From Vicinamibacteria bacterium (GTDB lineage Bacteria; Acidobacteriota; Vicinamibacteria; Marinacidobacterales; Marinacidobacteraceae): a DNA stretch of 64,000 bases. A model generated the notes under the pieces. The model saw nothing but the letters and a program-made list of their open reading frames with translations. It was not told the origin of the DNA and made no database searches. Every line of letters begins with the position of its first letter. Position 1 is the stretch's first letter. The stretch is taken from positions 1,097,226 to 1,161,225 of the forward strand of contig OZ241322.1 of NCBI GenBank assembly GCA_965199715.1, written 5' to 3'. Below, piece by piece: positions 10,365 to 26,958 of the stretch. The translations under genes and the position numbers were made by a program.

Positions 10365-10390
10365 CGAGAACCTCCCTACCGCAGAAGGAT

Positions 10391-10400: not shown

Positions 10401-10415
10401 GCCGAATGCGCCGGT

Positions 10416-10478: not shown

Positions 10479-10571
10479 TCCGGGTAGTTCCCGAGTTGAC
10501 ATTTTTCAGGGGGGATTTCGGAGCAAGGCAGGGGCGAACCACGACGCCGCCCGGCCGACAGGGAGGCCCCG

Positions 10572-10958: not shown

Positions 10959-11068
10959 CGATCGTGGGAATCCTCGTCGTCATCGACTGGGGCGATCTGA
11001 TCCGAAACGTGCGGCGTCGGATTTCTCCGCAGACCGAGTTTCCTGCGGTATGGCGGCGCTCGGGGTGA
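10874..11068 (+). CDS. small putative membrane protein (2 TM)
   Basis: MWWLGVVGYSVLSGLLG...ALTIVGILVVIDWG hydrophobic segments; overlaps previous ORF, only one of the two is likely fully real. Confidence 0.3.
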   Translation: MWWLGVVGYSVLSGLLGMDGVLPYGLALTIVGILVVIDWGDLIRNVRRRISPQTEFPAVWRRSG

Positions 11069-11108
11069 CTCTCGTGGGCGTGCGGCGACCCGAACGCCGC
11101 CCGGGGCA

Positions 11109-13413: not shown

Positions 13414-15678
13414 ATGTCCGGGCGCCTCGGCCTCGTCGCCCTCCTCGCCGCCGTCGGATGCGGCGGGGGGAGCGACCCCATCCGGCCGCTGAACGTGGTC
13501 GTGGTCACGCTGGACACGCTGTCGGCCCGGCACCTGAGTCCCTACGGCGCCGAGCGGATCCGCACGCCGGCGTTCGAGCGGGTCGCCGCCGAGGGCGCGC
13601 TGTTCGAGCAGGCCACCGCGAGCGTGCCGCTCACCCTGCCGTCGCACACCACGATGTTCACCGGCACGCACCCGATGTTCCACGGGGTTCGCGACAACGG
13701 CGGCTACTCGGTTCCCGACTCCGCCGAGACCCTCGCCGAGACGCTCCGGGACGCCGGCTGGCGCACCGGCGGGTTCGTGGGCGCCTTCGTCGTGGACTCG
13801 CGCTGGGGGCTCGACCAGGGGTTCGAGCGCTACTTCGACGACTTCGACTTCGGCGAGTTCGACTCGATCAGCCTCGACGCGGTCCAGCGGCCCGGGGACG
13901 AGGTGCTGGACGCCGCGGTCGAGTGGATGGAGGGCGCGCGCGACCAGCGGTTCTTCGCCTGGATCCACCTCTACGACCCGCACTGGCCCTACGAGCCGCC
14001 CGATCCGTGGCCGTCCCGGGTCGGCGACTACCGGGAGGCGCTGTACGACAGCGAGGTGCTGTTCACCGACTCGCTGGTAGGGCGGGTCCTCGACTGGCTG
14101 GACGAACGCTCGCTCGCCGACGACACGCTCGTCGTGCTCATCGCCGACCACGGCGAGAGCCTCGGGCGCCACCGCGAGACCGGCCACGGGTTCTTCATCT
14201 ACGACGCGGCGATGCAGGTCCCCTTCCTCGTCCGCGCCCCGTACCGGCAGATCGAGGGCGGGCGGCGGATCGGCGCGCAGGTGCGCGGGGTCGATCTCAT
14301 GCCCACGGTGCTCGAACTCGTGGGCGTTCCGGTTCCGGACGCGGTCCAGGGCGAGAGCCTCGTCCCGCTGCTCGACGGATCGGCGGACGACCTCGGCCTG
14401 TGGGCCTACAGCGAGAGCCTCTATCCGCGCAACCACTACGGCTGGGCGCCGCTCCACGGCCTGCGCGACGGCCTGCTGCACTTCATCGCGGCCCCGCGCC
14501 CCGAACTCTACGAGGTCGGGACGGACCCGGAGCAGCAGCGGAACCTCGCCGGCGAGCGTCCCGGGCAGGTGGAGCAGCTCCGGCGGCGGCTCGACGGGAT
14601 GATGGCGGAGTTCTCGACCGGCGCCGCGCCCGAGGCCCGGACCGTCGACGAGGACACGCGCGCCCGGCTCGCCGCGCTCGGCTACCTCGGCGGGACGGCT
14701 CCGGTTCCCGTCCGCGACGAGTCGGACCTCGCCGACCCGAAGGACAAGATCCACCTCTACAACCTGCTCAAGCTCGCCGGAACCGACTCGACCGAGGGGC
14801 GGACCGACCTCGCGATGGAGTCGGTGGAGCGGGTCCTCGCCGAGGATCCGGGGATCCTCGAGGCCCACCTGATCCGGGGGAACCTCCACCGGAAGGCCGG
14901 AGCGTGGGACGCCGCCATCGCGGCGTACCGGGACGCGCTGGCGCTCGACGAGAACTACCGCTCGGCGGTGCTCGGGCTCGCCGACGCCTACCGCCTCGCC
15001 GGCCGTCCGCGCGACGCCGAGGCCGGGTACCGCCGCCTCCTCGAACTGGACCCGAGCGACAACGTCGGCTCGTTCCACCTCGCCGGCGTCCTCGCCGAGC
15101 GCGGCGCCTTCGAGGACGCGCTGGAGGTGCTCGAGGGGCTCGAGGAGCGCGGCGACATCCGGGCGCCGGCCCGCAACCTCAAGGGCGAGTGCCTGCTCAG
15201 CCTCGGCCGGCTCGAAGCGGCCGAGGCCGAGTTCCGGCTCGCGCTGGAGATGGACGAGGATCTCTCGGAGGCCTGGTACAACCTCGCGCTGCTCCACGAG
15301 GAGCGGGGCGAGGGCGACCGGGCGATCCGCGCCTACGAGGCCCGGCTCGCGCTCGCGCCCGGCGACTTCCGCTCGCGCTTCAACCTCGCCCGGCTCCACG
15401 GCGCGATGGGCGACCAGGCCCTCATGGAAGCCGGGTTCCGCGAGGCGATCGCGAGCAACCCGGAATTCGCGGTCGGCCACCTCTATCTCGCGAAGGCGCT
15501 CCTCGACCGGGGCGAGCTCCAGGAAGCCGAGTCCCTCGCGCGGCGCGGCCTCGCGCTCGGGCCGGAGCCGGACATGGCTCCCTTCGGCCACTTCGTCCTC
15601 GCCGACGTCTACAACCGCCTCGGCCGGCCCGCCGACGCCCAGCGGGAACTGCGGCGGGGGCAGGCCCTTCGCCGCTGA
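13414..15678 (+). CDS. sulfatase-like hydrolase/transferase fused to C-terminal TPR repeats; lipoprotein signal
   Basis: N-terminus MSGRLGLVALLAAVGCGG; alkaline-phosphatase-superfamily region TLDTLSARH...LTLPSHTTMFTG; multiple TPR-like repeats in C-terminal 300 aa. Confidence 0.7.
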   Translation: MSGRLGLVALLAAVGCGGGSDPIRPLNVVVVTLDTLSARHLSPYGAERIRTPAFERVAAEGALFEQATASVPLTLPSHTTMFTGTHPMFHGVRDNGGYSVPDSAETLAETLRDAGWRTGGFVGAFVVDSRWGLDQGFERYFDDFDFGEFDSISLDAVQRPGDEVLDAAVEWMEGARDQRFFAWIHLYDPHWPYEPPDPWPSRVGDYREALYDSEVLFTDSLVGRVLDWLDERSLADDTLVVLIADHGESLGRHRETGHGFFIYDAAMQVPFLVRAPYRQIEGGRRIGAQVRGVDLMPTVLELVGVPVPDAVQGESLVPLLDGSADDLGLWAYSESLYPRNHYGWAPLHGLRDGLLHFIAAPRPELYEVGTDPEQQRNLAGERPGQVEQLRRRLDGMMAEFSTGAAPEARTVDEDTRARLAALGYLGGTAPVPVRDESDLADPKDKIHLYNLLKLAGTDSTEGRTDLAMESVERVLAEDPGILEAHLIRGNLHRKAGAWDAAIAAYRDALALDENYRSAVLGLADAYRLAGRPRDAEAGYRRLLELDPSDNVGSFHLAGVLAERGAFEDALEVLEGLEERGDIRAPARNLKGECLLSLGRLEAAEAEFRLALEMDEDLSEAWYNLALLHEERGEGDRAIRAYEARLALAPGDFRSRFNLARLHGAMGDQALMEAGFREAIASNPEFAVGHLYLAKALLDRGELQEAESLARRGLALGPEPDMAPFGHFVLADVYNRLGRPADAQRELRRGQALRR

Positions 15679-15691: not shown

Positions 15692-17797
15692 ATGAAGACC
15701 CCGCTTCTCGCCCTTCTCCTCGCCGCCGGGTGCGGCGCCGCCCCCGAACCCATGCCGGAAAACCCCCTTCTCGCCGAGAGCGCCCTGCCCTATCGGCTCC
15801 CCCCCTTCGACCTCATCACGGACGACCACTACCTGCCGGCGTTCGAGGAGGGGATGGCCGAGGAGATCGCGCTCATGGAGCGGATCGCGGCCTCGTCCGA
15901 CGATCCGACGTTCGAGAACACGATCGTCCCGATGGAGACCGGCTCGCCGCTGCTGGCGCGGGTCTCGCGGGTGTTCTTCGGGCTTTCCGGAGCGCACACC
16001 AACGACGCGATGAACGCAATCCGCGAGGAGATCTCGCCGAAGCTGGCCGCCCACGCCGACCGCATCCTCCTGAACCCGGATCTCTTCGCGCGGGTCGAGG
16101 CGATCCACGCGGCGCGGGAGTCCAGCGGGCTCGACGCGGAGCAGATCCGGCTGGTGGAGCGGTACCGCCGCAACTTCATCCGCGCCGGCGCGACGCTGTC
16201 CGAGGAGCAGAAGGAGCGGATGCGCGAGATCAACGCCCGGCTCGCGTCGCTCGGGTCCACGTTCACGCGCAACGTGCTGGACGAGGTGAACGCCGCGGCG
16301 GTCGTGGTCGAGGACGAGTCCGAGCTCGCCGGGCTGGACGAGGGAGCGGTGGCGGCCGCGCGGGAGGCGGCGGCCGCCCGCGGCCTCGACGGCCAATTCG
16401 TGATCCCGCTGCTGAACACGAGCGGCCAGCCGGCGCTCGCGAGCCTGACCGACCGGGCGCTGCGCGAGCGCATCATGCGGGCCTCGCTCGGGCGCGGCGG
16501 CAGCGGCGGCGAACACGACAACACCGAGGTCATCACCGAGATCGCCCGGCTGCGGGCCGAGCGCGCCGCGATGCTCGGCTATCCGCACCATGCGGCGTTC
16601 GTGCTCGAGGAGCAGACCGCGGGCGCGGTGGAGGCGGTGCACGAGCGCCTCTCCGCGCTCACCCCGGTGGCGGTCGAGAACGCCCGGCGCGAGGCCGCCG
16701 AACTGGAGCGCGTGGCCCGGGACGGCGGCGAGGACATCCGGGTCGCCGCGTGGGACTGGCAGATCTACACCGAGAAGCTGCGGGCCGAACTCTTCGACTT
16801 CGACGCCTCGGCGCTGCGCCCGTACTTCGAGCTGAACGGCGTGCTGGAGAAGGGAGTCTTCTTCGCCGCGAACCGGCTCTACGGGATGACGTTCGAGGAG
16901 CGCCCCGAACTTCCGGTCTATCAGGAGGACGTGCGCATCTGGGAGGTCTTCGACCACGACGGCTCGGCGCTCGGGCTGTTCATCGGCGACTTCTACGCCC
17001 GCCCGTCGAAGCGCGGCGGCGCGTGGATGAACGCCTACGTGCCGCAGTCGGGCCTGCTCGGGACGAAACCGGTGGTCGGGAACCACCTGAACGTCCCCGA
17101 GCCGCCCGAGGGCGAGCCGACGCTGCTCACGTTCGACGAGGTCATCACCCTGTTCCACGAGTTCGGGCACGCGATCCACGGGCTGTTCTCGGACGTGCGC
17201 TACCCGACGTTCGCCGGAACTTCGGTCCCCAGGGACTTCGTGGAGTTCCCCTCGCAGGTGAACGAGATGTGGGCGACCTGGCCCGAGGTGCTCCAGAACT
17301 ACGCGGTCCACCACGAGACCGGCGAGCCCATCCCCGCCGACCTGCTGGAGCGGGTGCTGTCCAGCCAGACGTTCAACCAGGGGTTCGCGACGACCGAGTA
17401 TCTGGCGGCGACGCTGCTGGACCTCGCGTGGCACGAACTCCAAGCCGACGAGGTTCCCGAGGCCGGGCGGGCGATCGCCTTCGAGGAGGCCGCGCTCGAA
17501 TCGGCGGGGGTCGCGTTCGCCCCGGTTCCGCCCCGCTACCGGAGCACGTACTTCTCCCACATCTGGGGGAGCGGCTACTCGGCGGGCTACTACTCGTACA
17601 TCTGGAGCGAAGTGCTCGACGCCGACACGGTGGAGTGGTTCCGCGAGAACGGCGGCCTGCTGCGCGAGAACGGCGACCACTTCCGGGCGACGCTGCTGTC
17701 GCGCGGCGGCTCGGTCGAGGCGATGCGGCTCTTCCGCGACTTCCGGGGCCGGGACGCCGAGATCGGCCCGCTGCTGAAGCGCCGCGGGCTGGACTGA
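15692..17797 (+). CDS. dcp: M3-family peptidyl-dipeptidase (Dcp/oligopeptidase A-like), lipoprotein signal
   Basis: HEFGHAIH zinc motif, full-length M3 architecture, N-terminal MKTPLLALLLAAGCG. Confidence 0.8.
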   Translation: MKTPLLALLLAAGCGAAPEPMPENPLLAESALPYRLPPFDLITDDHYLPAFEEGMAEEIALMERIAASSDDPTFENTIVPMETGSPLLARVSRVFFGLSGAHTNDAMNAIREEISPKLAAHADRILLNPDLFARVEAIHAARESSGLDAEQIRLVERYRRNFIRAGATLSEEQKERMREINARLASLGSTFTRNVLDEVNAAAVVVEDESELAGLDEGAVAAAREAAAARGLDGQFVIPLLNTSGQPALASLTDRALRERIMRASLGRGGSGGEHDNTEVITEIARLRAERAAMLGYPHHAAFVLEEQTAGAVEAVHERLSALTPVAVENARREAAELERVARDGGEDIRVAAWDWQIYTEKLRAELFDFDASALRPYFELNGVLEKGVFFAANRLYGMTFEERPELPVYQEDVRIWEVFDHDGSALGLFIGDFYARPSKRGGAWMNAYVPQSGLLGTKPVVGNHLNVPEPPEGEPTLLTFDEVITLFHEFGHAIHGLFSDVRYPTFAGTSVPRDFVEFPSQVNEMWATWPEVLQNYAVHHETGEPIPADLLERVLSSQTFNQGFATTEYLAATLLDLAWHELQADEVPEAGRAIAFEEAALESAGVAFAPVPPRYRSTYFSHIWGSGYSAGYYSYIWSEVLDADTVEWFRENGGLLRENGDHFRATLLSRGGSVEAMRLFRDFRGRDAEIGPLLKRRGLD

Positions 17798-17808
17798 GGG
17801 TTCGGGCC

Positions 17809-18858
17809 ATGGATCGCGCCCATGCGGACCGCATCGGCGCCCTCATGGCCCGTCTTCCCTTCGACCTCGATCCGGACATGGAAGCGACCGGCCGTCCGCC
17901 GACGATGGCCGGGTCGCAGTTCCTGACGAATCGAGAACAGGGCGACTGGGCGGAGGAGATCCTCCACGACGCGACCAACGGCCATTCGCCGGACTACGCG
18001 GCGGTCCGGTATGGGCGGGCGGAGTCGCTTCCGGCCGACGATCCCGGTTTCCCCAAGCACTTCGCGGACTACGTCGCCGAACTGAACGCCGTCGGCAAGA
18101 AACCCGACCTGCTCGTCGTTTCCCGGCGAGCCGGCGGCGCGACCGAACCCGCGGAGCGCGCGGTCGCCGGACTCGAAGTCCGCTCCAGCAGCTTTCTCGC
18201 GGACAAGTACGCCCGCTTCATGCGCAGCCGCAACACGGCCGCCGAAGCCGAGTGCCTTCGCCTTCAAGCCATCGTGCTCGGCGATCCCTACGGACCGCTT
18301 CTCCGCGAGAAAGCGCCGGAGACCCACGACCTGCTCTCGCGCGCCACGCGAGGGACGTTTCGGGAGATCACCTTCCGCGCCCGCAACCGGTCCTCGTCGG
18401 CGGCCCTGCGCGAGCTCAGCGAGCACCTCCGGGCGCTGCGGACCGAGATCCGGACCCTACACAAGCGGGACTACCTGAGCATCACGCCGAAGCTGGAGGA
18501 TCTCGTCCTGGTGAACCGTTGGATCCAGCGGTTCGGCGTGCCGCACTACTACGTGCAAGCGTTCTTCGACAGGGCGTTCGTGATCTCGTTCGAAAGCATC
18601 CTGCGCATCGTCGCCCGCCCTGAATGGGAGGGCGAGAAGTTCTCCGTCGAGCGCGACGTCAAGAACCAGCAGAAGACGACGCTCAAGATCGACGTCGGCG
18701 TCGGGCGGGAACTCGTGGGACGCATCGACTTCCCGAGTCACGAGTCGGCGTTGAGAGAGCTCGAGCGCGGACGGCTCCTCTTCTACGTCAGATTCCGCGG
18801 CGGGAGGGGCTATCTCGACGCGGACGCCTTCGAGCAGGAGATCGTCGGTGGGCGTTGA
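17809..18858 (+). CDS. putative Type II restriction endonuclease (unrecognised family) paired with downstream MTase
   Basis: 349-aa ORF whose stop overlaps the MTase start by 11 nt; possible PD-x(n)-ExR core KPDLLVV...GLEVRS; no other family match from sequence. Confidence 0.4.
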   Translation: MDRAHADRIGALMARLPFDLDPDMEATGRPPTMAGSQFLTNREQGDWAEEILHDATNGHSPDYAAVRYGRAESLPADDPGFPKHFADYVAELNAVGKKPDLLVVSRRAGGATEPAERAVAGLEVRSSSFLADKYARFMRSRNTAAEAECLRLQAIVLGDPYGPLLREKAPETHDLLSRATRGTFREITFRARNRSSSAALRELSEHLRALRTEIRTLHKRDYLSITPKLEDLVLVNRWIQRFGVPHYYVQAFFDRAFVISFESILRIVARPEWEGEKFSVERDVKNQQKTTLKIDVGVGRELVGRIDFPSHESALRELERGRLLFYVRFRGGRGYLDADAFEQEIVGGR

Positions 18859-20365
18859 CGCCTCCCGCTACGCGGCGATCGTCGGGGAGGAGCACCGGCG
18901 CAGGTTCGGCCAGTACTTCACTCCGCCCGCCGTCGCCCGGTTCATGGTGGACTGGGCGCTCGGCGGCGGGGCGAAGTCGATCCACGATCCGGGCTTCGGC
19001 CTCGGCGCGTTCCTCGACGCGGCGGACGGGCGGGGGGCGCGCTTTTCGGCGAGCGAGGTGGATCGGCGGGCCGTGCGCTTCTTCCAGGAGTCCTCGCACC
19101 GATGGAACGGCGAGCTTCGGGAGGAGGACTACCTGCTCGTCTGGGGCCGCCGATTCGACGCGATCGTCTGCAATCCGCCGTACCTGCGATTCCAGCGCTT
19201 TCGCGACCGGCACGCCATCCTGGCCGGCTTCCGCAAGAATCTGGGGTTTCGGCTATCCGGATACACGAACTCGGCCTCGGCGTTCCTCGTCAAGTCGCTG
19301 TCGGAACTGACCCCGGGAGGCAGGCTCGCCTACGTGACGCCGCTGGAGTTCCTGAACACCGGCTACGGGATGGGGGTCAAGGAACGGCTCCTCGCGAGCG
19401 GCGCTTCCCTGAGCCTGATCCAGCTCGACTGCGAGAAGGACGTGTTCCCGGACGTCATCACGTCCGTCGGGATCGTGCTGCTGGACACGGGCGCCGCGGC
19501 CGACGCGGTGCGGTTCCATTCGGTGCGATCGCTCGAGGAGCTCGAGGAAACGCTCGGCGGGCCGCCCATCGCTTCCGTCCCGACCGCTGATCTCCGCCCG
19601 GAAGAGCGGTGGATTCCTCACTTCACGGCGCGGTCGATTCGGCCGGACCGCACTCGCGTGGGGTCCATCCTCCAATACGGCCGTTTCACCCGAGGCATCG
19701 CGACCGGCGCCAACGACTTCTTCGTCATGCGACCTTCCCGCGCCCGCGCGCTGTCGCTCGAAGCGGAGGAGACCGCCCGGTGCATCACCAAGAGTCGGCA
19801 AGTCCGCAGCGCGGTCTTCACGAAGCGCGATCTCGCCGCGCTCGCCGACAAGGACGATCCGGTCCTCTTCTTCCGGGCGGGGCCGCGCCCGAGTCCGCCG
19901 GCGGCGACCTACATCGCCCACGGAGAGGAGCGGGGCCTGCATCGCCGCTACCTCCTGCGGCAGCGCCGTCCGTGGTTCAAGAGCGAGACCCGGAATCCGG
20001 CGCCGCTGCTGCTCGGCGTCTTCTCGCGGGGCGACTACAAGGTGGTTCTCAACCGGAGCGGGGCGCTCAACCTGACGTGCTTCCACGGCTTCGTCCCGCG
20101 GCTGCTCGGGCGGAACTACGTGGATCGGTTGTTCCTGTACCTCATCTCCGAGACCGGGCGCGACCTCATGGCCGACCTCGCCCGGCGTTACGGCGATTCG
20201 CTCGTCAAGTACGAGCCGCACGACCTGAACGACGCGCCCGTTCCCGTGCCGGAGGTGCTCGACCAGCTCGGTGCGGACGAAGTGGCCGACGCCGTGGTGC
20301 GCGTCCGCGCCGGAGCGGGCCTGCCCTCGGCCGTCGAGAACCGCTTCCGGGCGCTCGTGGCCTGA
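18848..20365 (+). CDS. gamma-class N6-adenine DNA methyltransferase (TaqI/Eco57I-like)
   Basis: motif X QYFTPPAVARFMVD, motif I HDPGFGLGAFL, motif IV VCNPPYL in gamma order. Confidence 0.8.
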   Translation: MGVDASRYAAIVGEEHRRRFGQYFTPPAVARFMVDWALGGGAKSIHDPGFGLGAFLDAADGRGARFSASEVDRRAVRFFQESSHRWNGELREEDYLLVWGRRFDAIVCNPPYLRFQRFRDRHAILAGFRKNLGFRLSGYTNSASAFLVKSLSELTPGGRLAYVTPLEFLNTGYGMGVKERLLASGASLSLIQLDCEKDVFPDVITSVGIVLLDTGAAADAVRFHSVRSLEELEETLGGPPIASVPTADLRPEERWIPHFTARSIRPDRTRVGSILQYGRFTRGIATGANDFFVMRPSRARALSLEAEETARCITKSRQVRSAVFTKRDLAALADKDDPVLFFRAGPRPSPPAATYIAHGEERGLHRRYLLRQRRPWFKSETRNPAPLLLGVFSRGDYKVVLNRSGALNLTCFHGFVPRLLGRNYVDRLFLYLISETGRDLMADLARRYGDSLVKYEPHDLNDAPVPVPEVLDQLGADEVADAVVRVRAGAGLPSAVENRFRALVA

Positions 20366-20375
20366 GGCCCGCCCG

Positions 20376-21437
20376 TCAGAGGGTCAGCGCGTCGGCCGAC
20401 GGAGGCCCCACGAGGCGGGCGAGGGCCGCGTTGAACGGCCCGGCCTCGAGGAAGTAGTTGGGGTACGCCTCCCGCAGGTCGTTCGCGGACGTCGTCGAGA
20501 CGAGGCAGACCTGAAAGCCGGCGCGGCCCTCGTGCTCCGCTTCCAGCTCGAGGTACCGGGCCTGCGCCTCCTCCAACTGGTGGTTGTGCCATGGGGTCAC
20601 GTCGATCTTCCGGGCGCCCGCGTCGAGCATCATGAGGTACCAGTCGGCGTCCGTCTCGAAGGCGGCGTGGTGGAGCCTTCCCCCCAGCCCGATCAGGATG
20701 TCCCAGACGTTGAGCCGGCGCACCAGGTCCTGAACCTCCTCCCGCAACTCCGGCAGCGCGGCCGGGGTCATGGGCACTGGCGGACGTTCCTCCTCGAGCG
20801 CGAGCACGCTGCCCATGAGGCTGAAGAAGCGGTCCCAGTCCCCGTTGGCGAGCCCGCTGGTCTTGATCGACGTGCCGGCGAGGGCGTCCACCGTCTCGAC
20901 CGCCGTGGCCCATGAATGCTGGTGCTTCGAGCGCGCCTGAATCTCGACGCGCAGGCCGTTCCAGTCCACGTCGTCGGGGTCGGCGTTCCGGTAGCGGAAC
21001 ACGAGATGGACGCTGCGGTATCCAGTGGGCTTGGGTTCGGCGATGTAGTCGTACACGCGGGCCAGGCCGTGCCGGTCCCCGACCTCGCGCAACCGGGCGA
21101 CGAGGCTCTCGGCGGCGGCGGACGAACCGAGGATCGCGCGGCAGCCGCCGAGGTCGTGCATGCGCGACAACTTCATCCGCGGGAACCGCCGCAGCTTCGA
21201 CTCGACGGAAGCGATGCGCTTGAGCCGCTCGGCGATCAGGACTTCCGGGTCGGTATCCCGCGCGCAGTCCTCGAGAAGCCCGCGGATCACGCGGAGCGGA
21301 TGCCCGTGCACGCCCCGCCACTCCTCCACGACCTGCCGCGCCCGCTCCCGATCCGCGTCGCCGGGCGCGGTGACCGCCAGAAGGCGTCCGGCCGCGTCCA
21401 CTTCGCGGCGGCTTCGCGTCGGGCGGCGGTACTCCAT
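20376..21437 (-). CDS. RelA/SpoT-domain protein (small alarmone synthetase-like; candidate fused toxSAS/CapRel-type defense protein)
   Basis: RMKLSRMHDLGGCRAILGS ... YRSVHLVFRY synthetase-fold signature; ~50-aa N-terminal and ~130-aa C-terminal extensions; convergent on the R-M pair; track ORF 20376..22670 merges it with upstream antisense. Confidence 0.65.
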   Translation of the reverse strand: MEYRRPTRSRREVDAAGRLLAVTAPGDADRERARQVVEEWRGVHGHPLRVIRGLLEDCARDTDPEVLIAERLKRIASVESKLRRFPRMKLSRMHDLGGCRAILGSSAAAESLVARLREVGDRHGLARVYDYIAEPKPTGYRSVHLVFRYRNADPDDVDWNGLRVEIQARSKHQHSWATAVETVDALAGTSIKTSGLANGDWDRFFSLMGSVLALEEERPPVPMTPAALPELREEVQDLVRRLNVWDILIGLGGRLHHAAFETDADWYLMMLDAGARKIDVTPWHNHQLEEAQARYLELEAEHEGRAGFQVCLVSTTSANDLREAYPNYFLEAGPFNAALARLVGPPSADALTL

Positions 21438-21448
21438 GACGACTGCGA

Positions 21449-22950
21449 TTATCGCCGCTGCAGCTCCCGGCGCAGTTCCACGCACAGCCCGAACCCGATG
21501 ACCGCTGATCCGACGGCGATCGGCAGGCCGGTCGTCACCGCCGCCGCCTGAAGCGATTCGAGGCTGCCGCCGAGCAGCAGGACGACCGCGATCGCCCCTT
21601 CCGTCAGGCACCAGAAGACGCGCTGCGCGGTCGGGGCGTCCAGCTTGCCGCCGGCGGTGATCGAGTCGATCACGAGCGAACCCGAGTCGGACGAGGTCAC
21701 GAAGAAGATGACCGTCAACAGGATCGCGACGATCGACAGCGCCACCGAGAACGGCAGCGCCTCGAAGAGCCGGAAGAGCGCGAGCTCGGGCCGGGCCTCC
21801 CGCACCGCGTCCGCCGCGCCCGCGTATCCCCCGTCCACGTACTGGTGGAGCGCCGCGCCGCCGAAGACGCTCATCCAGACCACGGCCAGCAACGTCGGCG
21901 CGGCGAGCAGGAACGCGAGCATCTCCCGAACGGTGCGTCCCCGTGAGATGCGGGCGATGAAGATCGCGACCACCGGCGTCCACGCGAACCACCAGGCGAA
22001 ATAGAAGGCGCTCCACTCCTGCAAGAAGGCCGTGTCCGAGCGCCCGACCCAGTTGCTCAGCGGAACCAGGTACGCGGCGTAGGCGACGAGGCTGCGGACG
22101 AACGCGCCGGCGATCGCGGCGGCCGGGCCGAGCGCGACGACGAGAAGCATCAGCCCGACCGCGAGCGTGATGTTCCACTCGCTCAGGCGGCGGACGCCCG
22201 CGTCGAGGCCCGAGAGGACCGAGACGAGCGCGATGAGAGTGACGACCGAGACGATGGCCACGCCGACGACGTCCGTGGCCGGGACTCCGAAGAGGTACTC
22301 GAGCCCGCCCGAGATCTGCCGCGCGCCCAGCCCGAGCGAGGTCGCCAGACCGAAGATCGTCGCGAAGACGGTCACGAAGTCGACGCAGTGGCCCCAAAAG
22401 CCCCAGACCGCGTCGCCCAGCACCGGATGGAACGCGGACCGCAGCGCCAGCGGATACCCACGGTTCCACGCGAAGTACGCGAGGGCGAGCGCCGAAATCC
22501 CGTAGATCGCCCAGCCGTGAACGCCCCAGTGGAAGAGGGTGGCGGCGATCGCGAGTCCCTCCTCGGGCGGGGCGCCGAGCGGCGGGAACAGGAAGTGCTG
22601 CATCGGCTCGGCCACGCCGAAGAACATGAGTCCGATGCCGATGCCGGCGGCGAAGAGCATCGCGCCCCACGTCAGCCGCGAGTACTTCGGTCGTGCGTCC
22701 GGCCCGCCGATCCGGATCCGCCCGAGCGGCGCGACGATCAGGAACAAACAGAACAGCAGCGCGAGGTTGGCGCTGCCGAGGTACAGCCAGTCGAAGCGCG
22801 AGACGAGGAAGGCGTGGACGCTCGCAAACGCGGCCGCCGCCTCGTCCCGGAACACGAGGGCGGCGACGACGAAGACGAGGATCGCCGCCGCCGAGCTGAT
22901 GAAGACCGGCGGGTTGAAGTCCAGCCCGAAGCGGCGGACGTTGCCGCGCC
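21449..22950 (-). CDS. BCCT-family (betaine/carnitine/choline) transporter; start codon unresolved
   Basis: collinear with BetT from NPPVF...LFRD through 12 TM; no ATG/GTG/TTG found between upstream stop (22972) and conserved N-terminus. Confidence 0.75.
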
Positions 22951-22971: not shown

Positions 22972-24588
22972 TCAGGACCGGGCCGTCCGCTGGTGCTGCC
23001 CCACGAACCCGACCACGACGCGACCGCCCTCCTCGCGCTCGAACGCGATGCGGATCGTGTGCCGGGGATTCTTCGCCACGCCCTTGCCGATGTGCTTCCG
23101 CAGCTTCACGGCCTTTCCGTTCACCCGGGTTTCGTACCACGCCGGAGCGCTCCCCATCGTCACTTCCGACTGGTGCGCCGTGTAGGACCAGCCGGGGCAC
23201 GCCTCGCCGATGTCCTGCGCCCCCTCCTGGAATGAGGTCGCGAGCCACGCCAGCGCCTCGAAGACTTCCTGCGGCTTCTCGTACTGCGTGTCCGCGTTGG
23301 ACTTGTTGTTCAACGCGATCACGAGCTGGTCGGGGAACCGGTCGCGGGCGGCCTCGATGGCCTCGCGGACGTTCGTGATCGCGATGGGAAGGTCGTCGGC
23401 TTGCTCGGGCCGCCGGCGTTTCTCCCGCTCGTAGGCGTCCCGCCAGACCGCCTCCTTCCGCCGGGCCTCGGCGACCTCCTCGGTCAGGCGCTTGATCTCC
23501 GCGTCGTTCGCCGACTCGCTGCGGGCGATTTGCTGGCGCAAGGACTCGATCTCCGCCTCGAGGTCGCGATCCGGCTCGGGGGCCTCCTCGACGGCGGGCG
23601 CGGGTTCGGCCTTCTTCGGCTCCTCCCTCGGGGCGGCGGGCGGCGGCGACGCCGCGAGCTCGGTCCATCGGGCGGACATCTTCAGGATGCGCTCCTCGAG
23701 GGCGGTTCGCTGCGCCGCGCGTTCGACCTCTCCCGCGCGGGAGGGGGCCTGGGGCCGGATCCGCCCGTACTCCTCCATGCGCTCCCGCAGTTCCGCCAGG
23801 AACTCCAGCATGCCCCCGCACTCCGAGGGACGGGTCTCGACCACGCGCGGCCACGGATCGGGATCCACGCCGAGATAGCGAAGGTCCGCGTCGAACTCGC
23901 TGCGCAGTCCGGCGCACAGCGCCGCGGCGCGCTCCTTGCCGCGGGCGAGCGCCTCGCGCCGCTTCCGGCCGCGGATGTCCAGCAGCCAGCTCGCGAAGAC
24001 GTCCACGTCGTTCCAGTCGGGAGCGTCCGGATCCAGCCCGTCCAGCGCGTCCTTCCACTCCTCGAACAGATTCGAGGTCAGCGGGGGCGACATCGGGAAG
24101 CGCCCGGCGACCAGGCACAGCATGAGTCCGGCGGCGTCGACCTCGACGGAGTCTTCGGTCCCGGCGAACTCCGCCTGGTGGCGCAGGAAGATTTCGCGCG
24201 GCCAGAACGAGTCGAACTCGCGAAACGACTCCCTGACGGCGACGCCGTTGGCGCGCAGATACGCCGCCGAACGCTCGCGCAGATCCTCCTCCGACTCCGC
24301 CCAGACCGCGAGCACCGCGTTCGCGAGCGTGAACCCGCGGCGATCGATCCGCTCCATCACCGGGCGTAAGAGCGTCTCGGGCTTGCGCACCCGGCTGGCG
24401 TCCCGGTGCCCCTTGACCGGGACGTTGCGCAGCGCCTGCTTCAGCCGCGGATCCGCCTTCTTTCCGTGACGCGCGAGGGCCCGCTTCACGACGGCGCGGC
24501 GCACCTCCTCGCCGACCAGCGGGAAGATGGCCGCGAGCGGGGTAAGGTCGCTTTCCGGGAAGAGCAGCTTCTCCTCGGCGGCGGGCAC
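22972..24588 (-). CDS. hypothetical protein (538 aa) with central Glu/Arg-rich coiled-coil and basic C-terminal domain
   Basis: single long ORF, protein-like; no recognised motif; C-terminus KLRKHIGKGVAKNPRHTIRIAFEREEGGRVVVGFVGQH. Confidence 0.6.
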   Translation of the reverse strand: MPAAEEKLLFPESDLTPLAAIFPLVGEEVRRAVVKRALARHGKKADPRLKQALRNVPVKGHRDASRVRKPETLLRPVMERIDRRGFTLANAVLAVWAESEEDLRERSAAYLRANGVAVRESFREFDSFWPREIFLRHQAEFAGTEDSVEVDAAGLMLCLVAGRFPMSPPLTSNLFEEWKDALDGLDPDAPDWNDVDVFASWLLDIRGRKRREALARGKERAAALCAGLRSEFDADLRYLGVDPDPWPRVVETRPSECGGMLEFLAELRERMEEYGRIRPQAPSRAGEVERAAQRTALEERILKMSARWTELAASPPPAAPREEPKKAEPAPAVEEAPEPDRDLEAEIESLRQQIARSESANDAEIKRLTEEVAEARRKEAVWRDAYEREKRRRPEQADDLPIAITNVREAIEAARDRFPDQLVIALNNKSNADTQYEKPQEVFEALAWLATSFQEGAQDIGEACPGWSYTAHQSEVTMGSAPAWYETRVNGKAVKLRKHIGKGVAKNPRHTIRIAFEREEGGRVVVGFVGQHQRTARS

Positions 24589-24598
24589 GGCGGCGGAC

Positions 24599-25798
24599 CT
24601 ACTGCTCGCGAAGCGCTCCCACGACGCCGCGCCGGGCCGCGCCGATTGCGGGGGCGAGGCCGCCGAAGAATCCGATGACGAGCGCGAGCGTGACGCCCTG
24701 GACCAGCAGCGCCGGGGTGACCCGGAACGCGAACGCGACCTGGCTGAAGGAGGCGAAGTTGATGGTCGCCGCCCGGAAGCCGTCGAAGAGCGCCCACGAG
24801 GCGGCGCCGCCGAGGAGCGCCCCGACCAGCGAGAACGCGAGCGACTCGGTCATCACCGACAGCACCACCGGAATTCGCGCGAACCCGAGCGCGCGCAACG
24901 TCGCGATCTCGCGCGAGCGGCTGGAGACCGCCGCGTACATGGTGTTCAGCGCCGCGAAGATCGCGCCCACGGCCATCATGCTCACGATGAACCAGCCGAG
25001 GACGGTGATGAGCACCTCCATCGGCCGCGACTGCTCGGCGAGGTACTCGGTCTCCGGCTGGACGGCGACGTTGACGCGGGGGTCGTCCTCGAGGAACGTG
25101 CGGAAGCCCTCGTAGGCCTCGGGGTCCGTCAGCCGCACGAGCACCGAATTCGAGGAGTTGCCGCGCTGGTACACGTCGGCGAGGATGCGGTTGTCGGTCC
25201 ATATCTCCGACTCGGAGACGCCGCCCCCGCCGGCGAAATGGCCGACGACCTCCCAGTCCGCCGTTCCCACGTCGATGCGGTCGCCGATGCGCAGGCCCTC
25301 GAACGACTCCACCGCCCCCACGCCGACGATGACCTCGTTGCGCCCCGCCTCGAACATGCGCCCGGCGACCACCTCGACCGAGTCGCGGACTTCCAGCACG
25401 CCCTCGCCCACGCCCCGCAGCGGGACGTTGGCCTGGGTCCCGGTCCCGATCTTCCGCCGGTCGATGACCACGAAGAGCTCGGCGGACGCCGCCGGGCCGG
25501 ACGCGCCGCGCGCCACGCCGGGAGCCTCCTCGACCGCCTGGACCTCCTGCCGGCTGAGGATGCTCATGGACTCGGCGGTCGAGCCGCTGCGAAGCACGAT
25601 CGCGAGGTCGTCGCGCGCCTGCGACTCCGCGACCTGGCGGAACCCGGCCGCCATCGAGAGCACGGCGACGAGCACGCCGACGACGCCGGCGACTCCGAAG
25701 ACCGCGACCGCCGAGGAGGAGCGCCGCTGCCAGATGGTCTGCAGGTTGTAGACGGAGACCGCCCAGCACTGCTTGACGAACGAGGCGATCCGGCGCAT
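24599..25798 (-). CDS. ABC transporter permease, FtsX family (MacB/DevC-like), copy 2
   Basis: N-terminal TM + large periplasmic domain + C-terminal FtsX 3-TM bundle; ATGA overlap with upstream permease. Confidence 0.75.
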   Translation of the reverse strand: MRRIASFVKQCWAVSVYNLQTIWQRRSSSAVAVFGVAGVVGVLVAVLSMAAGFRQVAESQARDDLAIVLRSGSTAESMSILSRQEVQAVEEAPGVARGASGPAASAELFVVIDRRKIGTGTQANVPLRGVGEGVLEVRDSVEVVAGRMFEAGRNEVIVGVGAVESFEGLRIGDRIDVGTADWEVVGHFAGGGGVSESEIWTDNRILADVYQRGNSSNSVLVRLTDPEAYEGFRTFLEDDPRVNVAVQPETEYLAEQSRPMEVLITVLGWFIVSMMAVGAIFAALNTMYAAVSSRSREIATLRALGFARIPVVLSVMTESLAFSLVGALLGGAASWALFDGFRAATINFASFSQVAFAFRVTPALLVQGVTLALVIGFFGGLAPAIGAARRGVVGALREQ

Positions 25799-26958
25799 CA
25801 CAACCGCCTCAGCGCCATCGCGGTCTGGAGTCGCATCGCCTTGCGCGCCGGGAAGACCCCGACGACGACGCCGGTGAGGACCGCGAGGATCACGCCGACG
25901 ACGGCGTCCTGCGGACGCAGGTAGAACGCGGGGAAGAACTGCGCGACCGCGGACGCGAGCGCCTCGCCGGCGCCGATCGCGAGCAGCAGGCCGACCACGC
26001 CGGCGGTCGTCACGAGCACGACCGACTCGAGCAGGACGAGCCGCATCACTTGGTGGCCGCTGAACCCGAGCGCCTTCAGGAGGCCGATCTCGCCGACGCG
26101 CTCGCGGACCGACTGCGCCATGGTGTTGCCGGCGACCAGCAGGATCGTGAAGAAGACCGCTCCGAGGATCGAGGTCACGATGAGGCCGATGTTCCCGATC
26201 TGGTTCGCGAACCCGGCGGCGAACGCGCCTTCGGGCTCCGACTTGGTCTCCGCGGGCGAGTTCTGGAAGAGAGCGTCGATCTCGCCCGCGATCTCGGGCG
26301 CCCGGTCGGGGTCGGCCACCCGGACCATGTACCAGCCGATCTCGCCCCGTCCGAACGAGCGCGCCTCGTCGAACATGTCGTAGCGAAAGATGAACTGGCT
26401 TCGGTCGAAGCCCTCCACCTCGGTGTCGTACACGCCGACGATCTCGAACTCCCACGCCTGGTCCTGCCTGTTCCGCTGCCGCCAGATCGTGGGCTGGATC
26501 GGAATGCGGTCCCCCACTTCCCAGCCGAAGCGCTCGACGAGCCCGCGCCCGACGACGACGCCGTCGCGGGTCTCGGTCCAGCGCTGGCGGGCCGCCTGCG
26601 AGAGATCGATCTCCGGGTACATGTCGAGGTACTCGAGCGGCTTCGCCGGCGACTGCATGAAGAAGTTGGAGGGGTCCTGATAGACGCCGCCGAACCACGT
26701 CATGTGCATGGCGTCCACGACCCCCGGGATTTTCTCGATCTCGGCCTCGTAGGTCTCGGGGAGCATCTGGAACAACGAGACCCGGTGGCGCACCACGAGC
26801 CGCTGCTCGTTCGCGATATCGACCCCGGCGGCGAACGCGGTGCGCAGCATCGAGAGCATCCCGAACATGAAGAACGCCACCAGCACCGACATGAAGGTGA
26901 GCATCGTGCGGGTCTTGCGGCGGCGGAGCGCCGCGCCGATCAGGGGGAGATCTCGCAT
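25798..26958 (-). CDS. ABC transporter permease, FtsX family, copy 1
   Basis: same architecture; start overlaps ATPase gene end. Confidence 0.75.
   Translation of the reverse strand: MRDLPLIGAALRRRKTRTMLTFMSVLVAFFMFGMLSMLRTAFAAGVDIANEQRLVVRHRVSLFQMLPETYEAEIEKIPGVVDAMHMTWFGGVYQDPSNFFMQSPAKPLEYLDMYPEIDLSQAARQRWTETRDGVVVGRGLVERFGWEVGDRIPIQPTIWRQRNRQDQAWEFEIVGVYDTEVEGFDRSQFIFRYDMFDEARSFGRGEIGWYMVRVADPDRAPEIAGEIDALFQNSPAETKSEPEGAFAAGFANQIGNIGLIVTSILGAVFFTILLVAGNTMAQSVRERVGEIGLLKALGFSGHQVMRLVLLESVVLVTTAGVVGLLLAIGAGEALASAVAQFFPAFYLRPQDAVVGVILAVLTGVVVGVFPARKAMRLQTAMALRRL

What the first reader, a model, noticed from the sequence alone, without database searches (positions are those of the whole stretch)
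20376..21437. RelA/SpoT-domain protein convergent on the R-M pair: candidate fused toxSAS (CapRel-like) abortive-infection gene
The 354-aa protein has the alarmone-synthetase fold signature (MHDLGGCRAILGS ... YRSVHLVFRY) plus a ~130-aa C-terminal extension, which could act as an autoinhibitory/phage-sensing domain as in CapRel-type fused toxin-antitoxins. It lies in a defense-rich neighbourhood immediately after the R-M.
Basis: partly seen in the sequence, partly recalled or inferred. Interest (0 to 1): 0.65.

Follow-up and report, generated by a model that had tools for sequence, protein, structure and literature searches.

The report
Fused CapRel-type toxin–antitoxin defence gene
The gene is a clear new member of the known CapRel family, a single-protein anti-phage system that is predicted to shut down translation by modifying tRNA ends when a phage protein is sensed; it sits next to a restriction-modification pair in a strain-variable slot of an acidobacterial chromosome.

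Summary
The ORF is real: 20376..21437 on the minus strand, ATG start, 353 aa. It is not a housekeeping alarmone synthetase.

**Family.** It aligns over its full length with CapRelSJ46, the founding fused toxSAS. The PDB sequence search gave E 8e-38, tblastn to phage SJ46 covered 95% of the query, and Foldseek put 7ZTB first at E 5e-21. It shares the PADLOC model PDC-S33 with CapRelSJ46 (E 2e-98).

**Defining residues.** All sequence features that define CapRel are present:
- the ATP-site arginines R71 and R100
- the G-loop tyrosine Y140
- the catalytic D95 and E165
- a Cys-poor β-β-α-β C-terminal domain, the pseudo-ZFD
- the autoinhibitory YPNY motif (Y325, Y328)

The residues CapRelSJ46 uses to contact its trigger are not conserved, so the trigger here is unknown.

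**Context.** The gene is monocistronic, with gaps of 10–11 nt on both sides. Together with an AccI-type R-M pair it fills a 3.65-kb slot between two conserved convergent genes, M3 peptidase and a BCCT transporter. Three related genomes carry other cargo there (GmrSD, a Schlafen-like ATPase, an IS element).

**Host.** The host is probably a Vicinamibacteria acidobacterium, not an actinobacterium.

**Verdict.** Biochemistry and anti-phage activity are inferred, not shown.

The parts
20376..21437 (-). Complete CapRel-family fused toxSAS gene (353 aa plus stop), monocistronic
   Evidence: ORF and translation. PADLOC PDC-S33 E 2.2e-98 over the full length. PDB phmmer best hit CapRelSJ46 at E 8e-38. 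tblastn to phage SJ46 covers 95% of the query at E 1e-38. PHROG 4773 E 3e-80.
20793..21437 (-). N-terminal helices plus toxSYNTH (RelA/SpoT nucleotidyltransferase) toxin domain, residues 1-215. Catalytic and substrate residues: R71, K73, R74, D95, R100, Y140, H144, E165, Q167, R169.
   Evidence: Pfam RelA_SpoT over residues 70-178. These residues are invariant in 60 homologues. They map to CapRelSJ46 R79, R116 and Y155 (roles from PMC9712102).
20652..20792 (-). Helical linker/anchor region, residues 216-262
   Evidence: AF2 helices 228-241 and 244-248. Collinear with the anchor helices of CapRelSJ46 in alignment A3.
20493..20651 (-). Pseudo-zinc-finger domain (antitoxin/sensor), residues 263-315. 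Topology β266-272, β277-283, α285-301, β308-314, with a single Cys (C311).
   Evidence: AF2 secondary structure at pLDDT about 90. Foldseek full-length alignment to 7ZTB. Less conserved than the core: mean top-residue frequency 0.51 against 0.67. Lacks two inserts of 8 and 9 residues present in CapRelSJ46.
20379..20492 (-). C-terminal helices carrying the autoinhibitory YXXY motif, residues 316-353
   Evidence: A324, Y325, P326, N327 and Y328 are present in at least 90% of 60 homologues. They are identical to CapRelSJ46 A351-Y355.
20454..20465 (-). YPNY (YXXY) motif codons, Y325-Y328
   Evidence: Read directly from the sequence and the residue map.
17809..18858 (+). AccI-type type II restriction endonuclease. 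Neighbouring cargo of the same variable slot, not a conserved partner.
   Evidence: Pfam RE_AccI E 1e-88. PADLOC REase_II E 1.4e-75. No AccI-type R-M lies near any of 80 homologue loci.
18848..20365 (+). Type II N6-adenine DNA methyltransferase (NPPY at residue 109), convergent on the CapRel gene with a 10-nt gap
   Evidence: Pfam Eco57I/N6_Mtase. PADLOC MTase_II E 1.7e-77. NPPY motif.
17798..21448 (.). Strain-variable 3.65-kb insert (R-M plus CapRel), bounded by the stop codons of two conserved convergent core genes
   Evidence: The M3 peptidase and BCCT genes align to within a few codons of their stops in relatives (L085, L086), but the DNA between them carries different genes.
15692..17797 (+). 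M3 peptidase, conserved left flank of the slot
   Evidence: Pfam Peptidase_M3 E 1e-117. 84-88% identical over the tblastn alignment in L084-L086 (83-86% by BLASTP).
21449..22855 (-). BCCT transporter, conserved right flank. Its stop codon lies 11 nt upstream of the CapRel ATG on the same strand.
   Evidence: Pfam BCCT E 3e-159. 77-78% identical in L085 and L086.

Best explanation
The gene encodes a fused, single-polypeptide toxin-antitoxin of the CapRel subfamily of toxic small alarmone synthetase homologues (toxSAS).

**Shown here.**
- Residues 1-215 form a RelA/SpoT-type nucleotidyltransferase with every catalytic and ATP-binding residue intact.
- Residues 263-315 form a cysteine-poor β-β-α-β 'pseudo-zinc-finger' domain.
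- The C-terminal helices carry the conserved YPNY motif.
- The gene stands alone, with no adjacent antitoxin gene.
- It occupies a strain-variable slot together with a type II R-M pair.

**Inferred from the characterised homologue CapRelSJ46.**
- In uninfected cells the C-terminal domain folds back, and the YPNY turn inserts between R71 and R100. This blocks the ATP site, so the protein is autoinhibited.
- During infection a phage protein binds the pseudo-ZFD and anchor region and holds the protein open.
- The toxSYNTH domain then transfers pyrophosphate from ATP to the 3' CCA end of tRNAs. Aminoacylation and translation stop, and the infection is aborted.
- The trigger is unknown and probably differs from those of the enterobacterial CapRels, because the contact residues are not conserved.
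For: **Sequence family.**
- PADLOC PDC-S33 matches over the full length at E 2.2e-98. Two fragments of CapRelSJ46 hit the same model and no other (E 3e-66 and 1.6e-11).
- PDB phmmer gives CapRelSJ46 (7ZTB/9ERV) at E 8e-38, against 3e-7 for RelQ.
- tblastn against 50,697 phage records finds the phage SJ46 RelA/SpoT gene in one collinear piece over residues 9-343.

**Structure.**
- The AF2 model has pLDDT 92.5 and pTM 0.90, with a β-β-α-β C-terminal domain.
- The top three Foldseek hits are the CapRel structures, at E 5e-21 over about 357 columns.

**Residues (roles from PMC9712102).**
- SJ46 A77, R79, R116, Y155, L339, A351, Y352 and Y355 correspond to window A69, R71, R100, Y140, L312, A324, Y325 and Y328.
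- R71, D95, R100, Y140, E165 and Q167 are invariant, and YPNY is at least 90% conserved, across 60 homologues.

**Architecture.** Gaps of 10-11 nt on both sides leave no room for a separate antitoxin gene.

**Mobility and defence context.**
- The slot holds GmrSD plus an AAA_14 ATPase, a Schlafen/AlbA_2 ATPase, or ISL3 cargo in three relatives.
- The nearest homologue is only 57% identical, whereas the flanking peptidase has relatives at 83-86%.
- Homologues have no conserved neighbour. They sit beside IS1595 or IS110 transposases, PIN/Phd pairs and AAA_14/Vsr clusters.

**Chemistry of the family.** CapRel, PhRel2 and FaRel2 inhibit translation. tRNA CCA pyrophosphorylation was shown for FaRel2 and PhRel2 (bioRxiv 10.1101/2021.04.30.441581) and for CapRelSJ46 (PMC9712102).
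Against: - No biochemical or phage data exist for this protein or its clade.
- It is only 28% identical to CapRelSJ46 overall, and 33% in the toxSYNTH region.
- Two interface residues differ: V338 corresponds to C311 and A341 to S314.
- The pseudo-ZFD is shorter, with two deletions of 8 and 9 residues. The trigger-contact residues are absent (L280) or changed (L307 corresponds to K277).
- I could not inspect the model coordinates, so the closed autoinhibited state is not verified. The 9.5 Å rmsd to the open crystal form is only compatible with it.
- No promoter or terminator was detected, so expression is unproven.
- Many immediate neighbours of homologues are ordinary housekeeping genes, so the defence-island association is moderate rather than strong.
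Confidence: 0.8

Rival explanations
1. It is a housekeeping small alarmone synthetase of the RelQ/RelP/RelV type that makes (p)ppGpp for stress signalling, perhaps linked to the osmolyte (BCCT) transporter immediately upstream.
For: It has a RelA_SpoT domain. It lies 11 nt downstream of a BCCT transporter on the same strand, between housekeeping genes.
Against: - NCBIfam YjbM gives 35 bits against a cut-off of 320, and spoT_relA gives 23 against 499.
- RelQ/RelP structures score E 1e-6 to 1e-7, against 8e-38 for CapRel.
- The protein has the CapRel-specific C-terminal domain and YPNY motif.
- The gene is absent from the same locus in three close relatives that keep BCCT.
- The nearest homologue is only 57% identical.
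Confidence: 0.02
2. It is a CapRel-fold toxin with a different chemistry or target, for example (pp)pApp synthesis that depletes ATP as in FaRel and Tas1, rather than tRNA pyrophosphorylation.
For: toxSAS subfamilies differ in product. Tas1 and FaRel2 appear as weak Foldseek hits at E about 1e-3. No assay exists for this clade.
Against: The G-loop Tyr (Y140) and the basic residues shared with tRNA-modifying CapRelSJ46 are conserved. Sequence affinity to CapRel is about 30 orders of magnitude better than to any other RSH. The CapRel members tested inhibit translation specifically.
Confidence: 0.05
3. It is a CapRel-family fused toxin-antitoxin whose main role here is not phage defence. It might stabilise the inserted islet as a selfish addiction module, or respond to a host or stress cue instead of a phage protein.
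For: - It sits in a mobile, strain-variable insert beside another addictive module, the R-M pair.
- The trigger-contact residues are not conserved.
- CapRelEbc is reported to need the host protein FtsZ in its trigger complex (PMC13423816 abstract), so host factors can take part.
Against: A fused single-chain TA cannot work by differential antitoxin decay as easily as a two-gene system. All characterised fused CapRels defend against phages (PMC9712102, PMC11578894). The slot holds bona fide defence genes such as GmrSD in relatives.
Confidence: 0.1
4. It is an inactive relic or a mis-assembled gene.
For: The source is a metagenome-type assembly. A nearby methylase gene is split at a G12 run.
Against: - The 353-codon frame is intact, with GC3 of 0.92.
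- All invariant family residues are present.
- The identical protein and locus were recovered in independent short-read assemblies of three sequencing runs.
- The fold prediction is confident.
Confidence: 0.03

Closest known systems
CapRelSJ46 (Salmonella prophage SJ46; PDB 7ZTB and 9ERV; Zhang et al. 2022, PMC9712102)
   Same: - Same fused architecture over the full length: toxSYNTH, then anchors, pseudo-ZFD and a YXXY helix.
- Conserved ATP-site arginines, G-loop Tyr, YPNY motif and most interface residues.
- Both match the same PADLOC model (PDC-S33).
- Both are single genes on mobile or variable DNA.
   Different: - Only 28% identical.
- The pseudo-ZFD is shorter by two deletions of 8 and 9 residues.
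- Trigger-contact residue L280 is absent and L307 corresponds to K277.
- The gene is chromosomal, in a slot between core genes of a probable Vicinamibacteria acidobacterium, not on a P1-like prophage.
- The trigger and the phages are unknown.
CapRelEbc (Enterobacter chengduensis) and CapRelKp
   Same: Fused CapRel defence proteins whose variable C-terminal domain sets phage specificity (PMC9712102). CapRelEbc senses T7 Gp0.4 together with FtsZ (PMC13423816 abstract).
   Different: I did not compare these sequences directly. They are enterobacterial proteins with known triggers.
Bicistronic CapRel toxSAS (e.g. Mycobacterium tuberculosis AB308 CapRel plus a separate antitoxin; Jimmy et al. 2020, Kurata et al. 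2021)
   Same: Same toxSAS subfamily, and translation-specific toxicity.
   Different: Those have a separate antitoxin gene. Here the antitoxin is fused and there is no adjacent small ORF. According to PMC9712102 the fused form predominates outside Actinobacteria, which fits the acidobacterial host inferred here.
FaRel2 and PhRel2 toxSAS (tRNA CCA pyrophosphokinases) and Tas1/FaRel ((pp)pApp synthetases)
   Same: RelA/SpoT-fold toxins. FaRel2 and PhRel2 share the tRNA-modifying chemistry inferred here.
   Different: The matches are only distant (Foldseek E about 1e-3). Their antitoxins are separate proteins or SAH hydrolases, and they have no pseudo-ZFD.
Housekeeping SAS RelQ/RelP (PDB 5DEC, 6FGK, 6EWZ)
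   Same: Shared synthetase core fold (Foldseek E 3e-6, TM about 0.6 on the target).
   Different: About 200-aa single-domain tetrameric (p)ppGpp synthetases with no C-terminal sensor domain. The window protein scores far below their family thresholds.

Membership tests
CapRel (fused toxSAS toxin-antitoxin) | RelA/SpoT-type toxSYNTH domain with intact ATP-coordinating arginines (SJ46 R79, R116), catalytic acidic residues and G-loop Tyr (Y155) | tested here: met
   Pfam RelA_SpoT E 4.6e-14. R71, R100, D95, E165 and Y140 are present and invariant in 60 homologues.
CapRel (fused toxSAS toxin-antitoxin) | Sequence groups with CapRel rather than with other RSH subfamilies | tested here: met
   phmmer against the PDB gives CapRelSJ46 at E 8e-38, with the next hit (RelQ) at 3e-7. 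It shares PADLOC model PDC-S33 with CapRelSJ46. tblastn to phage SJ46 covers 95% of the query. No formal phylogeny with the RSH subfamily HMMs was possible here.
CapRel (fused toxSAS toxin-antitoxin) | Fused C-terminal pseudo-ZFD: a three-stranded antiparallel sheet with a helix between the second and third strands, lacking zinc-binding cysteines | tested here: met
   AF2 model: β266-272, β277-283, α285-301, β308-314 at pLDDT about 90. Only one Cys (C311) occurs in residues 216-353. Foldseek aligns the model over the full length to 7ZTB.
CapRel (fused toxSAS toxin-antitoxin) | Conserved YXXY autoinhibitory motif and interface residues (SJ46 A77, R116, V338, L339, A341, A351, Y352, Y355) | tested here: met
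   A69, R100, L312, A324, Y325 and Y328 are conserved. V338 corresponds to C311 and A341 to S314, both conservative or small changes.
CapRel (fused toxSAS toxin-antitoxin) | Single-ORF system with no separate antitoxin gene | tested here: met
   There are 10 nt to the methylase stop and 11 nt to the BCCT stop. Homologues have no conserved neighbour.
CapRel (fused toxSAS toxin-antitoxin) | Closed autoinhibited conformation, with YXXY inserted between the two ATP-site arginines | tested here: inconclusive
   The model has pTM 0.90, and its 9.5 Å rmsd to the open crystal form is compatible with a different domain arrangement. The coordinates could not be inspected with these tools.
CapRel (fused toxSAS toxin-antitoxin) | Pyrophosphorylation of the tRNA 3' CCA end using ATP, with translation-specific toxicity | not testable with these tools
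   Inferred from homology only (PMC9712102; bioRxiv 10.1101/2021.04.30.441581).
CapRel (fused toxSAS toxin-antitoxin) | Activation by direct binding of a phage protein, and protection against phage | not testable with these tools
   There are no phage data. The trigger-contact residues of CapRelSJ46 are not conserved.
Housekeeping small alarmone synthetases (RelQ/RelP/YjbM/YwaC) | Reaches the curated family score, with a single-domain protein of about 200-230 aa | tested here: not met
   NCBIfam GTPPhKinYjbM gives 35 bits against a cut-off of 320. The protein is 353 aa with an extra C-terminal domain.
Long RSH (Rel/RelA/SpoT) | HD hydrolase, synthetase and TGS/ACT regulatory domains, about 700 aa | tested here: not met
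   TIGR00691 gives 23 bits against a cut-off of 499. No HD or TGS domain appears in Pfam.
Defence-island / variable hotspot cargo | Present or absent between conserved flanks in related genomes, with other defence genes at the same site | tested here: met
   The slot between M3 peptidase and BCCT carries R-M plus CapRel here, GmrSD plus AAA_14/DUF4143 in L085, ISL3 transposase plus S8 peptidase plus AAA_14 in L086, and downstream of the peptidase in L084 (no BCCT within 10 kb) a SLFN_AlbA_2 ATPase.

The most novel reading that the evidence does not exclude
The acidobacterial CapRel clade has a trimmed pseudo-ZFD and non-conserved contact residues, so it may sense a class of trigger unlike the capsid, Gp54 or Gp0.4-FtsZ triggers known for enterobacterial CapRels.

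In this genome the gene may also have no promoter of its own. It is packed 11 nt behind a core osmolyte-transporter gene and 10 nt from a convergent R-M operon, with no detectable terminator. Its level would then be set by read-through from the BCCT operon and by antisense collision with R-M transcription. That would couple an abortive-infection switch to osmotic state and to the first-line R-M defence.
Probability: 0.07. Interest if true: 0.45.

Novelty: new member of a known kind. Interest (0 to 1): 0.18.

Why it matters
Its value is mainly as annotation. It extends a well-characterised single-protein phage sensor to Acidobacteriota (probably Vicinamibacteria), a soil phylum with almost no experimental phage biology.

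The family is very widespread. At least 573 loci occur in GTDB species representatives, including contigs binned to archaea.

The divergent sensor domain could be used to search for new phage triggers. The slot between the M3 peptidase and BCCT genes, and the second slot upstream, are usable landmarks for finding further defence cargo in this lineage.

None of this changes what is known about how CapRel works.

Tried and rejected
- **Actinobacterial origin.** I first assumed this from the 70% GC. I rejected it because the flanking M3 peptidase's identifiable relatives lie on contigs whose lengths match named Vicinamibacteria MAGs, and one relative is labelled Acidobacteria. This remains indirect.
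- **Conserved partner gene or R-M linkage.** tblastn of all window neighbours against 80 homologue loci found no AccI-type endonuclease or methylase near any homologue. The R-M pair is therefore co-located cargo, not a partner.
- **Island boundaries.** No flanking direct or inverted repeats above chance were found around 17.6-21.7 kb. The window contains no tRNA genes and no Rfam matches.
- **Terminator between the convergent genes.** The consensus scan found none. Folding of 20330-20420 on both strands gave z-scores of +0.31 and -0.17. No sigma-70-like promoter was found either, although that scan may not suit this phylum.
- **Quantifying defence enrichment around homologues.** I scanned 133 immediate neighbours in bulk. 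Only the top 25 families are returned, so I obtained a qualitative picture and not an enrichment statistic. The picture is IS1595 transposases in 9 of 133 neighbours, scattered MADS, PD-T4-6, RmrA-like and type I S subunits, and many housekeeping genes.
- **PDC-S33 in the literature.** The search found no paper.
- **One context look-up failed.** P0006 was not on record.
Full report
**1. The observation**

The window has about 70% GC, so six-frame ORF lists are full of shadows. A codon-position GC filter singles out 20376..21437 on the minus strand as a real gene, with GC1/2/3 of 0.73/0.47/0.92. It starts with ATG at 21437 and ends with TGA at 20376-20378, encoding 353 residues. The longer 764-codon frame in the mechanical list belongs to an upstream gene read in another frame.

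Homologues start at the same position. The identical protein and gene order were recovered in independent assemblies of three sequencing runs. The only correction is that '354 aa' counted the stop codon.

**2. What the protein is**

- Pfam finds a RelA_SpoT domain at residues 70-178 (E 4.6e-14).
- The curated models for housekeeping enzymes fail by a wide margin. YjbM/RelQ gives 35 bits against a cut-off of 320, and spoT_relA gives 23 against 499.
- The PADLOC model PDC-S33 matches end to end: residues 1-343 against profile positions 1-342 of 349, E 2.2e-98.
- PHROG 4773 also matches over the full length (E 3e-80).
- Among all solved structures, the best sequence matches are the two CapRelSJ46 entries 7ZTB and 9ERV, at E 8e-38. 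There are two aligned stretches. Residues 9-216 cover the toxin domain, and residues 272-342 cover the C-terminal domain with an identical AYPNYF. RelQ follows at E 3e-7.
- Two fragments of CapRelSJ46 hit only PDC-S33 in PADLOC (E 3e-66 and 1.6e-11). That 'candidate' model is therefore the CapRel family.
- A tblastn against 50,697 phage records returns essentially one gene, the RelA/SpoT gene of Salmonella phage SJ46. It matches in a single collinear piece over 95% of the query (E 1e-38).

**3. Structure**

An AlphaFold2 model built on 60 homologues is confident, with pLDDT 92.5 and pTM 0.90. After the synthetase fold come helices 200-215, 228-241 and 244-248. Then follow β266-272, β277-283, α285-301 and β308-314, and finally short helices 318-324, 326-329 and 333-343.

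This is the topology described for the CapRel pseudo-ZFD: a three-stranded sheet with a helix between the second and third strands, followed by a C-terminal helical extension (PMC9712102). The C-terminal 138 residues contain a single cysteine, so it is not a zinc finger.

The top three Foldseek hits are the CapRel structures, at E 5e-21 over about 357 aligned columns with TM 0.68. SAS enzymes follow at E 3e-6. The 9.5 Å rmsd is what one would expect if the model is closed and the crystal form open, as reported for CapRelSJ46. I could not inspect the coordinates, so this point stays open.

**4. Functional residues**

I fetched the CapRelSJ46 gene and aligned it with the window protein and seven homologues. 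I then mapped the residues the authors tested.

| CapRelSJ46 residue | Window residue | Role (PMC9712102) |
|---|---|---|
| R79, R116 | R71, R100 | adenine coordination |
| Y155 | Y140 | G-loop |
| A77 | A69 | autoinhibitory interface |
| L339 | L312 | autoinhibitory interface |
| A351 | A324 | autoinhibitory interface |
| Y352, Y355 | Y325, Y328 | YXXY motif |
| V338 | C311 | interface, conservative change |
| A341 | S314 | interface, small-residue change |
| L280 | absent (lies in a segment missing here) | trigger binding |
| L307 | K277 | trigger binding |

Across 60 homologues, R71, K73, R74, D95, G97, G98, R100, Y140, H144, E165, Q167 and R169 are invariant. A324, Y325, P326, N327 and Y328 are at least 90% conserved.

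The pseudo-ZFD lacks two inserts of 8 and 9 residues that CapRelSJ46 has. By region, the pseudo-ZFD is less conserved than the synthetase core (mean top-residue frequency 0.51 against 0.67), while the YXXY block is among the most conserved at 0.91. The authors describe the same pattern.

**5. Genomic setting**

The order of genes is as follows.

| Coordinates | Strand | Gene |
|---|---|---|
| 11858-13375 | - | aldehyde dehydrogenase |
| 13414-15678 | + | sulfatase-TPR protein |
| 15692-17797 | + | M3 peptidase |
| 17809-18858 | + | AccI-type endonuclease |
| 18848-20365 | + | N6-adenine methyltransferase (NPPY at residue 109) |
| 20376-21437 | - | CapRel gene |
| 21449-22855 | - | BCCT transporter |
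| 22972-24588 | - | 538-aa unknown protein |
| 24599-26958 | - | MacB/FtsX permeases |

The gaps around the CapRel gene are 10 and 11 nt, which leaves no room for a separate antitoxin gene. No promoter-like or terminator-like site was found at either end of the gene; the one terminator-like match lies inside the BCCT gene. No stable hairpin lies between the convergent stops, with z-scores near 0.

**6. A strain-variable slot**

The M3 peptidase has relatives at 83-86% identity on three 2.9-3.0 Mb contigs. I fetched those loci and compared them with the window.

The backbone is conserved: DUF4340, aldehyde dehydrogenase, M3 peptidase, BCCT, FtsX, FtsX and an ABC ATPase, at 77-89% identity (56-63% for DUF4340). 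The DNA between the stop codons of the convergent peptidase and BCCT genes differs in every genome.

| Genome | Cargo after the M3 peptidase |
|---|---|
| window | AccI R-M plus CapRel (17798-21448, 3.65 kb) |
| L085 | GmrSD type IV restriction enzyme plus AAA_14/DUF4143 ATPase |
| L086 | ISL3 transposase, S8 peptidase, AAA_14/DUF4143 |
| L084 (no BCCT within 10 kb) | Schlafen/AlbA_2-HATPase protein |

A second slot, between DUF4340 and aldehyde dehydrogenase, also varies. In the window it holds a ResIII helicase, a type III-like methylase and Phd/PIN remnants. In L085 it holds an SfiI-type R-M and a ParA-like/HATPase pair.

The CapRel gene's nearest homologue anywhere is only 57% identical. 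This fits horizontal acquisition. No flanking repeats, tRNA genes or integrase mark the insert.

**7. The family elsewhere**

There are 1265 proteins at E ≤ 1e-5 among the candidates scored. At least 573 loci occur in GTDB species representatives. They come from Acidobacteriota, Proteobacteria, Chloroflexota, Bacteroidota, Nitrospirota and others, including contigs binned as Woesearchaeota, Micrarchaeota and Methanosarcinales.

The 133 immediate neighbours of about 70 homologues show no conserved partner. The commonest families are IS1595 transposase domains (9 of 133). A few are defence proteins (MADS mad3, mad6 and mad8, a PD-T4-6 kinase, PDC-S13, HEC-09, a type I S subunit, an RmrA-like HTH-M78 protein). 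Many are housekeeping genes.

Three close homologues were examined in detail:
- one is a solitary insertion between an FtsX permease and an M28 peptidase;
- one sits at the same site, together with a PIN/Phd pair and an IS110 transposase;
- one sits next to a cluster containing Vsr, AAA_14, AAA_16 and DUF8371.

None has an AccI-type R-M nearby. The picture is a self-contained mobile single-gene system that often, but not always, lands among defence and mobile genes.

**8. Host**

The CapRel homologues closest to the window protein (51-56%) are in Vicinamibacteria MAGs. The vertically inherited M3 peptidase gives stronger evidence. Its 72-74% relatives lie on contigs of 2,908,270 and 7,265,713 bp, the lengths of the named Vicinamibacteria and Vicinamibacterales records. 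One relative is labelled 'Acidobacteria bacterium'.

The window also carries the ribosomal-protein gene cluster at 43-61 kb, so it is chromosomal. The host is therefore probably a small-genome Vicinamibacteria acidobacterium. This fits the statement that the fused CapRel form predominates outside Actinobacteria (PMC9712102).

**9. Mechanism**

*Shown here:* the domain architecture, intact catalytic and autoinhibitory residues, the monocistronic arrangement, and the location in a variable slot.

*Inferred from CapRelSJ46 and other toxSAS:* the YPNY turn blocks the ATP site between R71 and R100. Binding of a phage protein to the pseudo-ZFD and anchors holds the enzyme open. The enzyme then pyrophosphorylates the 3' CCA end of tRNAs from ATP, translation stops, and the infection aborts.

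The trigger cannot be predicted. The contact residues differ, and no phages of this lineage are characterised.

I put the probability that it is a CapRel-family fused toxSAS at about 0.93. I put the probability that it works as an anti-phage tRNA pyrophosphokinase at about 0.75-0.8.

**10. Rivals**

- A housekeeping SAS is excluded by the scores and by the C-terminal domain.
- A different nucleotide chemistry, such as (pp)pApp synthesis, cannot be excluded without an assay but is unlikely.
- A primarily selfish or stress-responsive role is possible but less likely than defence.
- A dead gene is unlikely, given the intact invariant residues and the recovery of the same locus in three independent sequencing runs.

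**11. Novelty and score**

This is a new member of a known kind. Standard defence annotation would already flag it as PADLOC PDC-S33. Modest points of interest are the phylum, the trimmed and divergent sensor domain, the extremely tight packing against core genes, and the two variable defence slots in this lineage. Interest is 0.18.

Noticed in passing
window 4445-7022 (+), junction at 5278-5289: A type III-like DNA methylase is split into two overlapping ORFs, 4445-5299 and 5262-7022. They match consecutive parts of the same PADLOC model, MTase_III PDLC03632 (profile positions 135-325 and 345-557). The split falls exactly at a run of 12 G (5278-5289). This could be a phase-variable mod gene (a 'phasevarion'), a pseudogene, or a homopolymer sequencing error. 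A 994-aa ResIII helicase-like gene (1464-4448) lies directly upstream.
   Followed up: partly
window 22972-24588 (-): A 538-aa protein with no Pfam or PDB match and a coiled-coil-like, charged middle region. It is inserted between FtsX and BCCT in this genome only, and is absent at that site in L085 and L086. There is a weak PADLOC HEC-07 hit on the C-terminal 200 aa (E 1e-7). Only 14 relatives were found in the 5.8-billion-protein search. The three contexts examined are mobile or defence-like: IS110 plus N6_N4 methylase plus ResIII; ParB_N plus AAA_34 helicase, Toprim, AbiJ_NTD3 and SmaI; phage integrase, MobC, a type I S subunit and an M78 peptidase. It is a rare orphan family associated with mobile elements.
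   Followed up: partly
window 7000-10400: A stretch of lower GC (0.64 against about 0.71). It holds three unannotatable ORFs (7085-7831, 7756-8601, 8598-9029), a Phd/YefM antitoxin (9131-9370, -), a truncated PIN toxin that retains only its C-terminal third (9367-9615, -), and two further Phd-like ORFs (9845-10084 and 10131-10364, -). It looks like decayed toxin-antitoxin or mobile-element debris.
   Followed up: partly
window 714-11100, compared with L084 5276-7661 and L085 3663-8359: A second strain-variable slot lies between the conserved DUF4340 gene and the (DUF6503)/aldehyde dehydrogenase genes. The window has an HTH protein, a ResIII helicase, the split methylase and TA debris. L085 has an N6_N4 methylase plus an SfiI-type endonuclease, a CbiA/ParA-like ATPase, a HATPase_c_4 protein and NOV_C. 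L084 has only small unknown ORFs.
   Followed up: partly
L041, L051, L063, L076 (Woesearchaeota); L031 (Micrarchaeota); L068, L074 (Methanosarcinales): Full-length CapRel homologues, 34-38% identical to the window protein, occur on contigs binned as archaeal MAGs, including four independent Woesearchaeota bins. If these are not binning artefacts, the fused CapRel family extends to archaea.
   Followed up: no
window 17797-17809, 20365-20376, 21437-21449, 24588-24599: The inserted genes are packed against the core genes with gaps of only 10-11 nt at four successive junctions. The junctions are peptidase to endonuclease, methylase to CapRel (convergent), BCCT to CapRel, and FtsX to the 538-aa ORF. 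No promoter or terminator was detected at these junctions. This suggests expression by read-through from the flanking core operons.
   Followed up: partly
L088 8001-8858 and L089 8001-9014: In two other Vicinamibacteria-type genomes the CapRel homologue occupies one shared site. The site lies downstream of an aldehyde dehydrogenase, ABC ATPase and 1150-aa FtsX permease, and upstream of M28 peptidases. In one genome it stands alone, and in the other it has a PIN/Phd pair and an IS110 transposase. This is a different slot from the one in the window.
   Followed up: no
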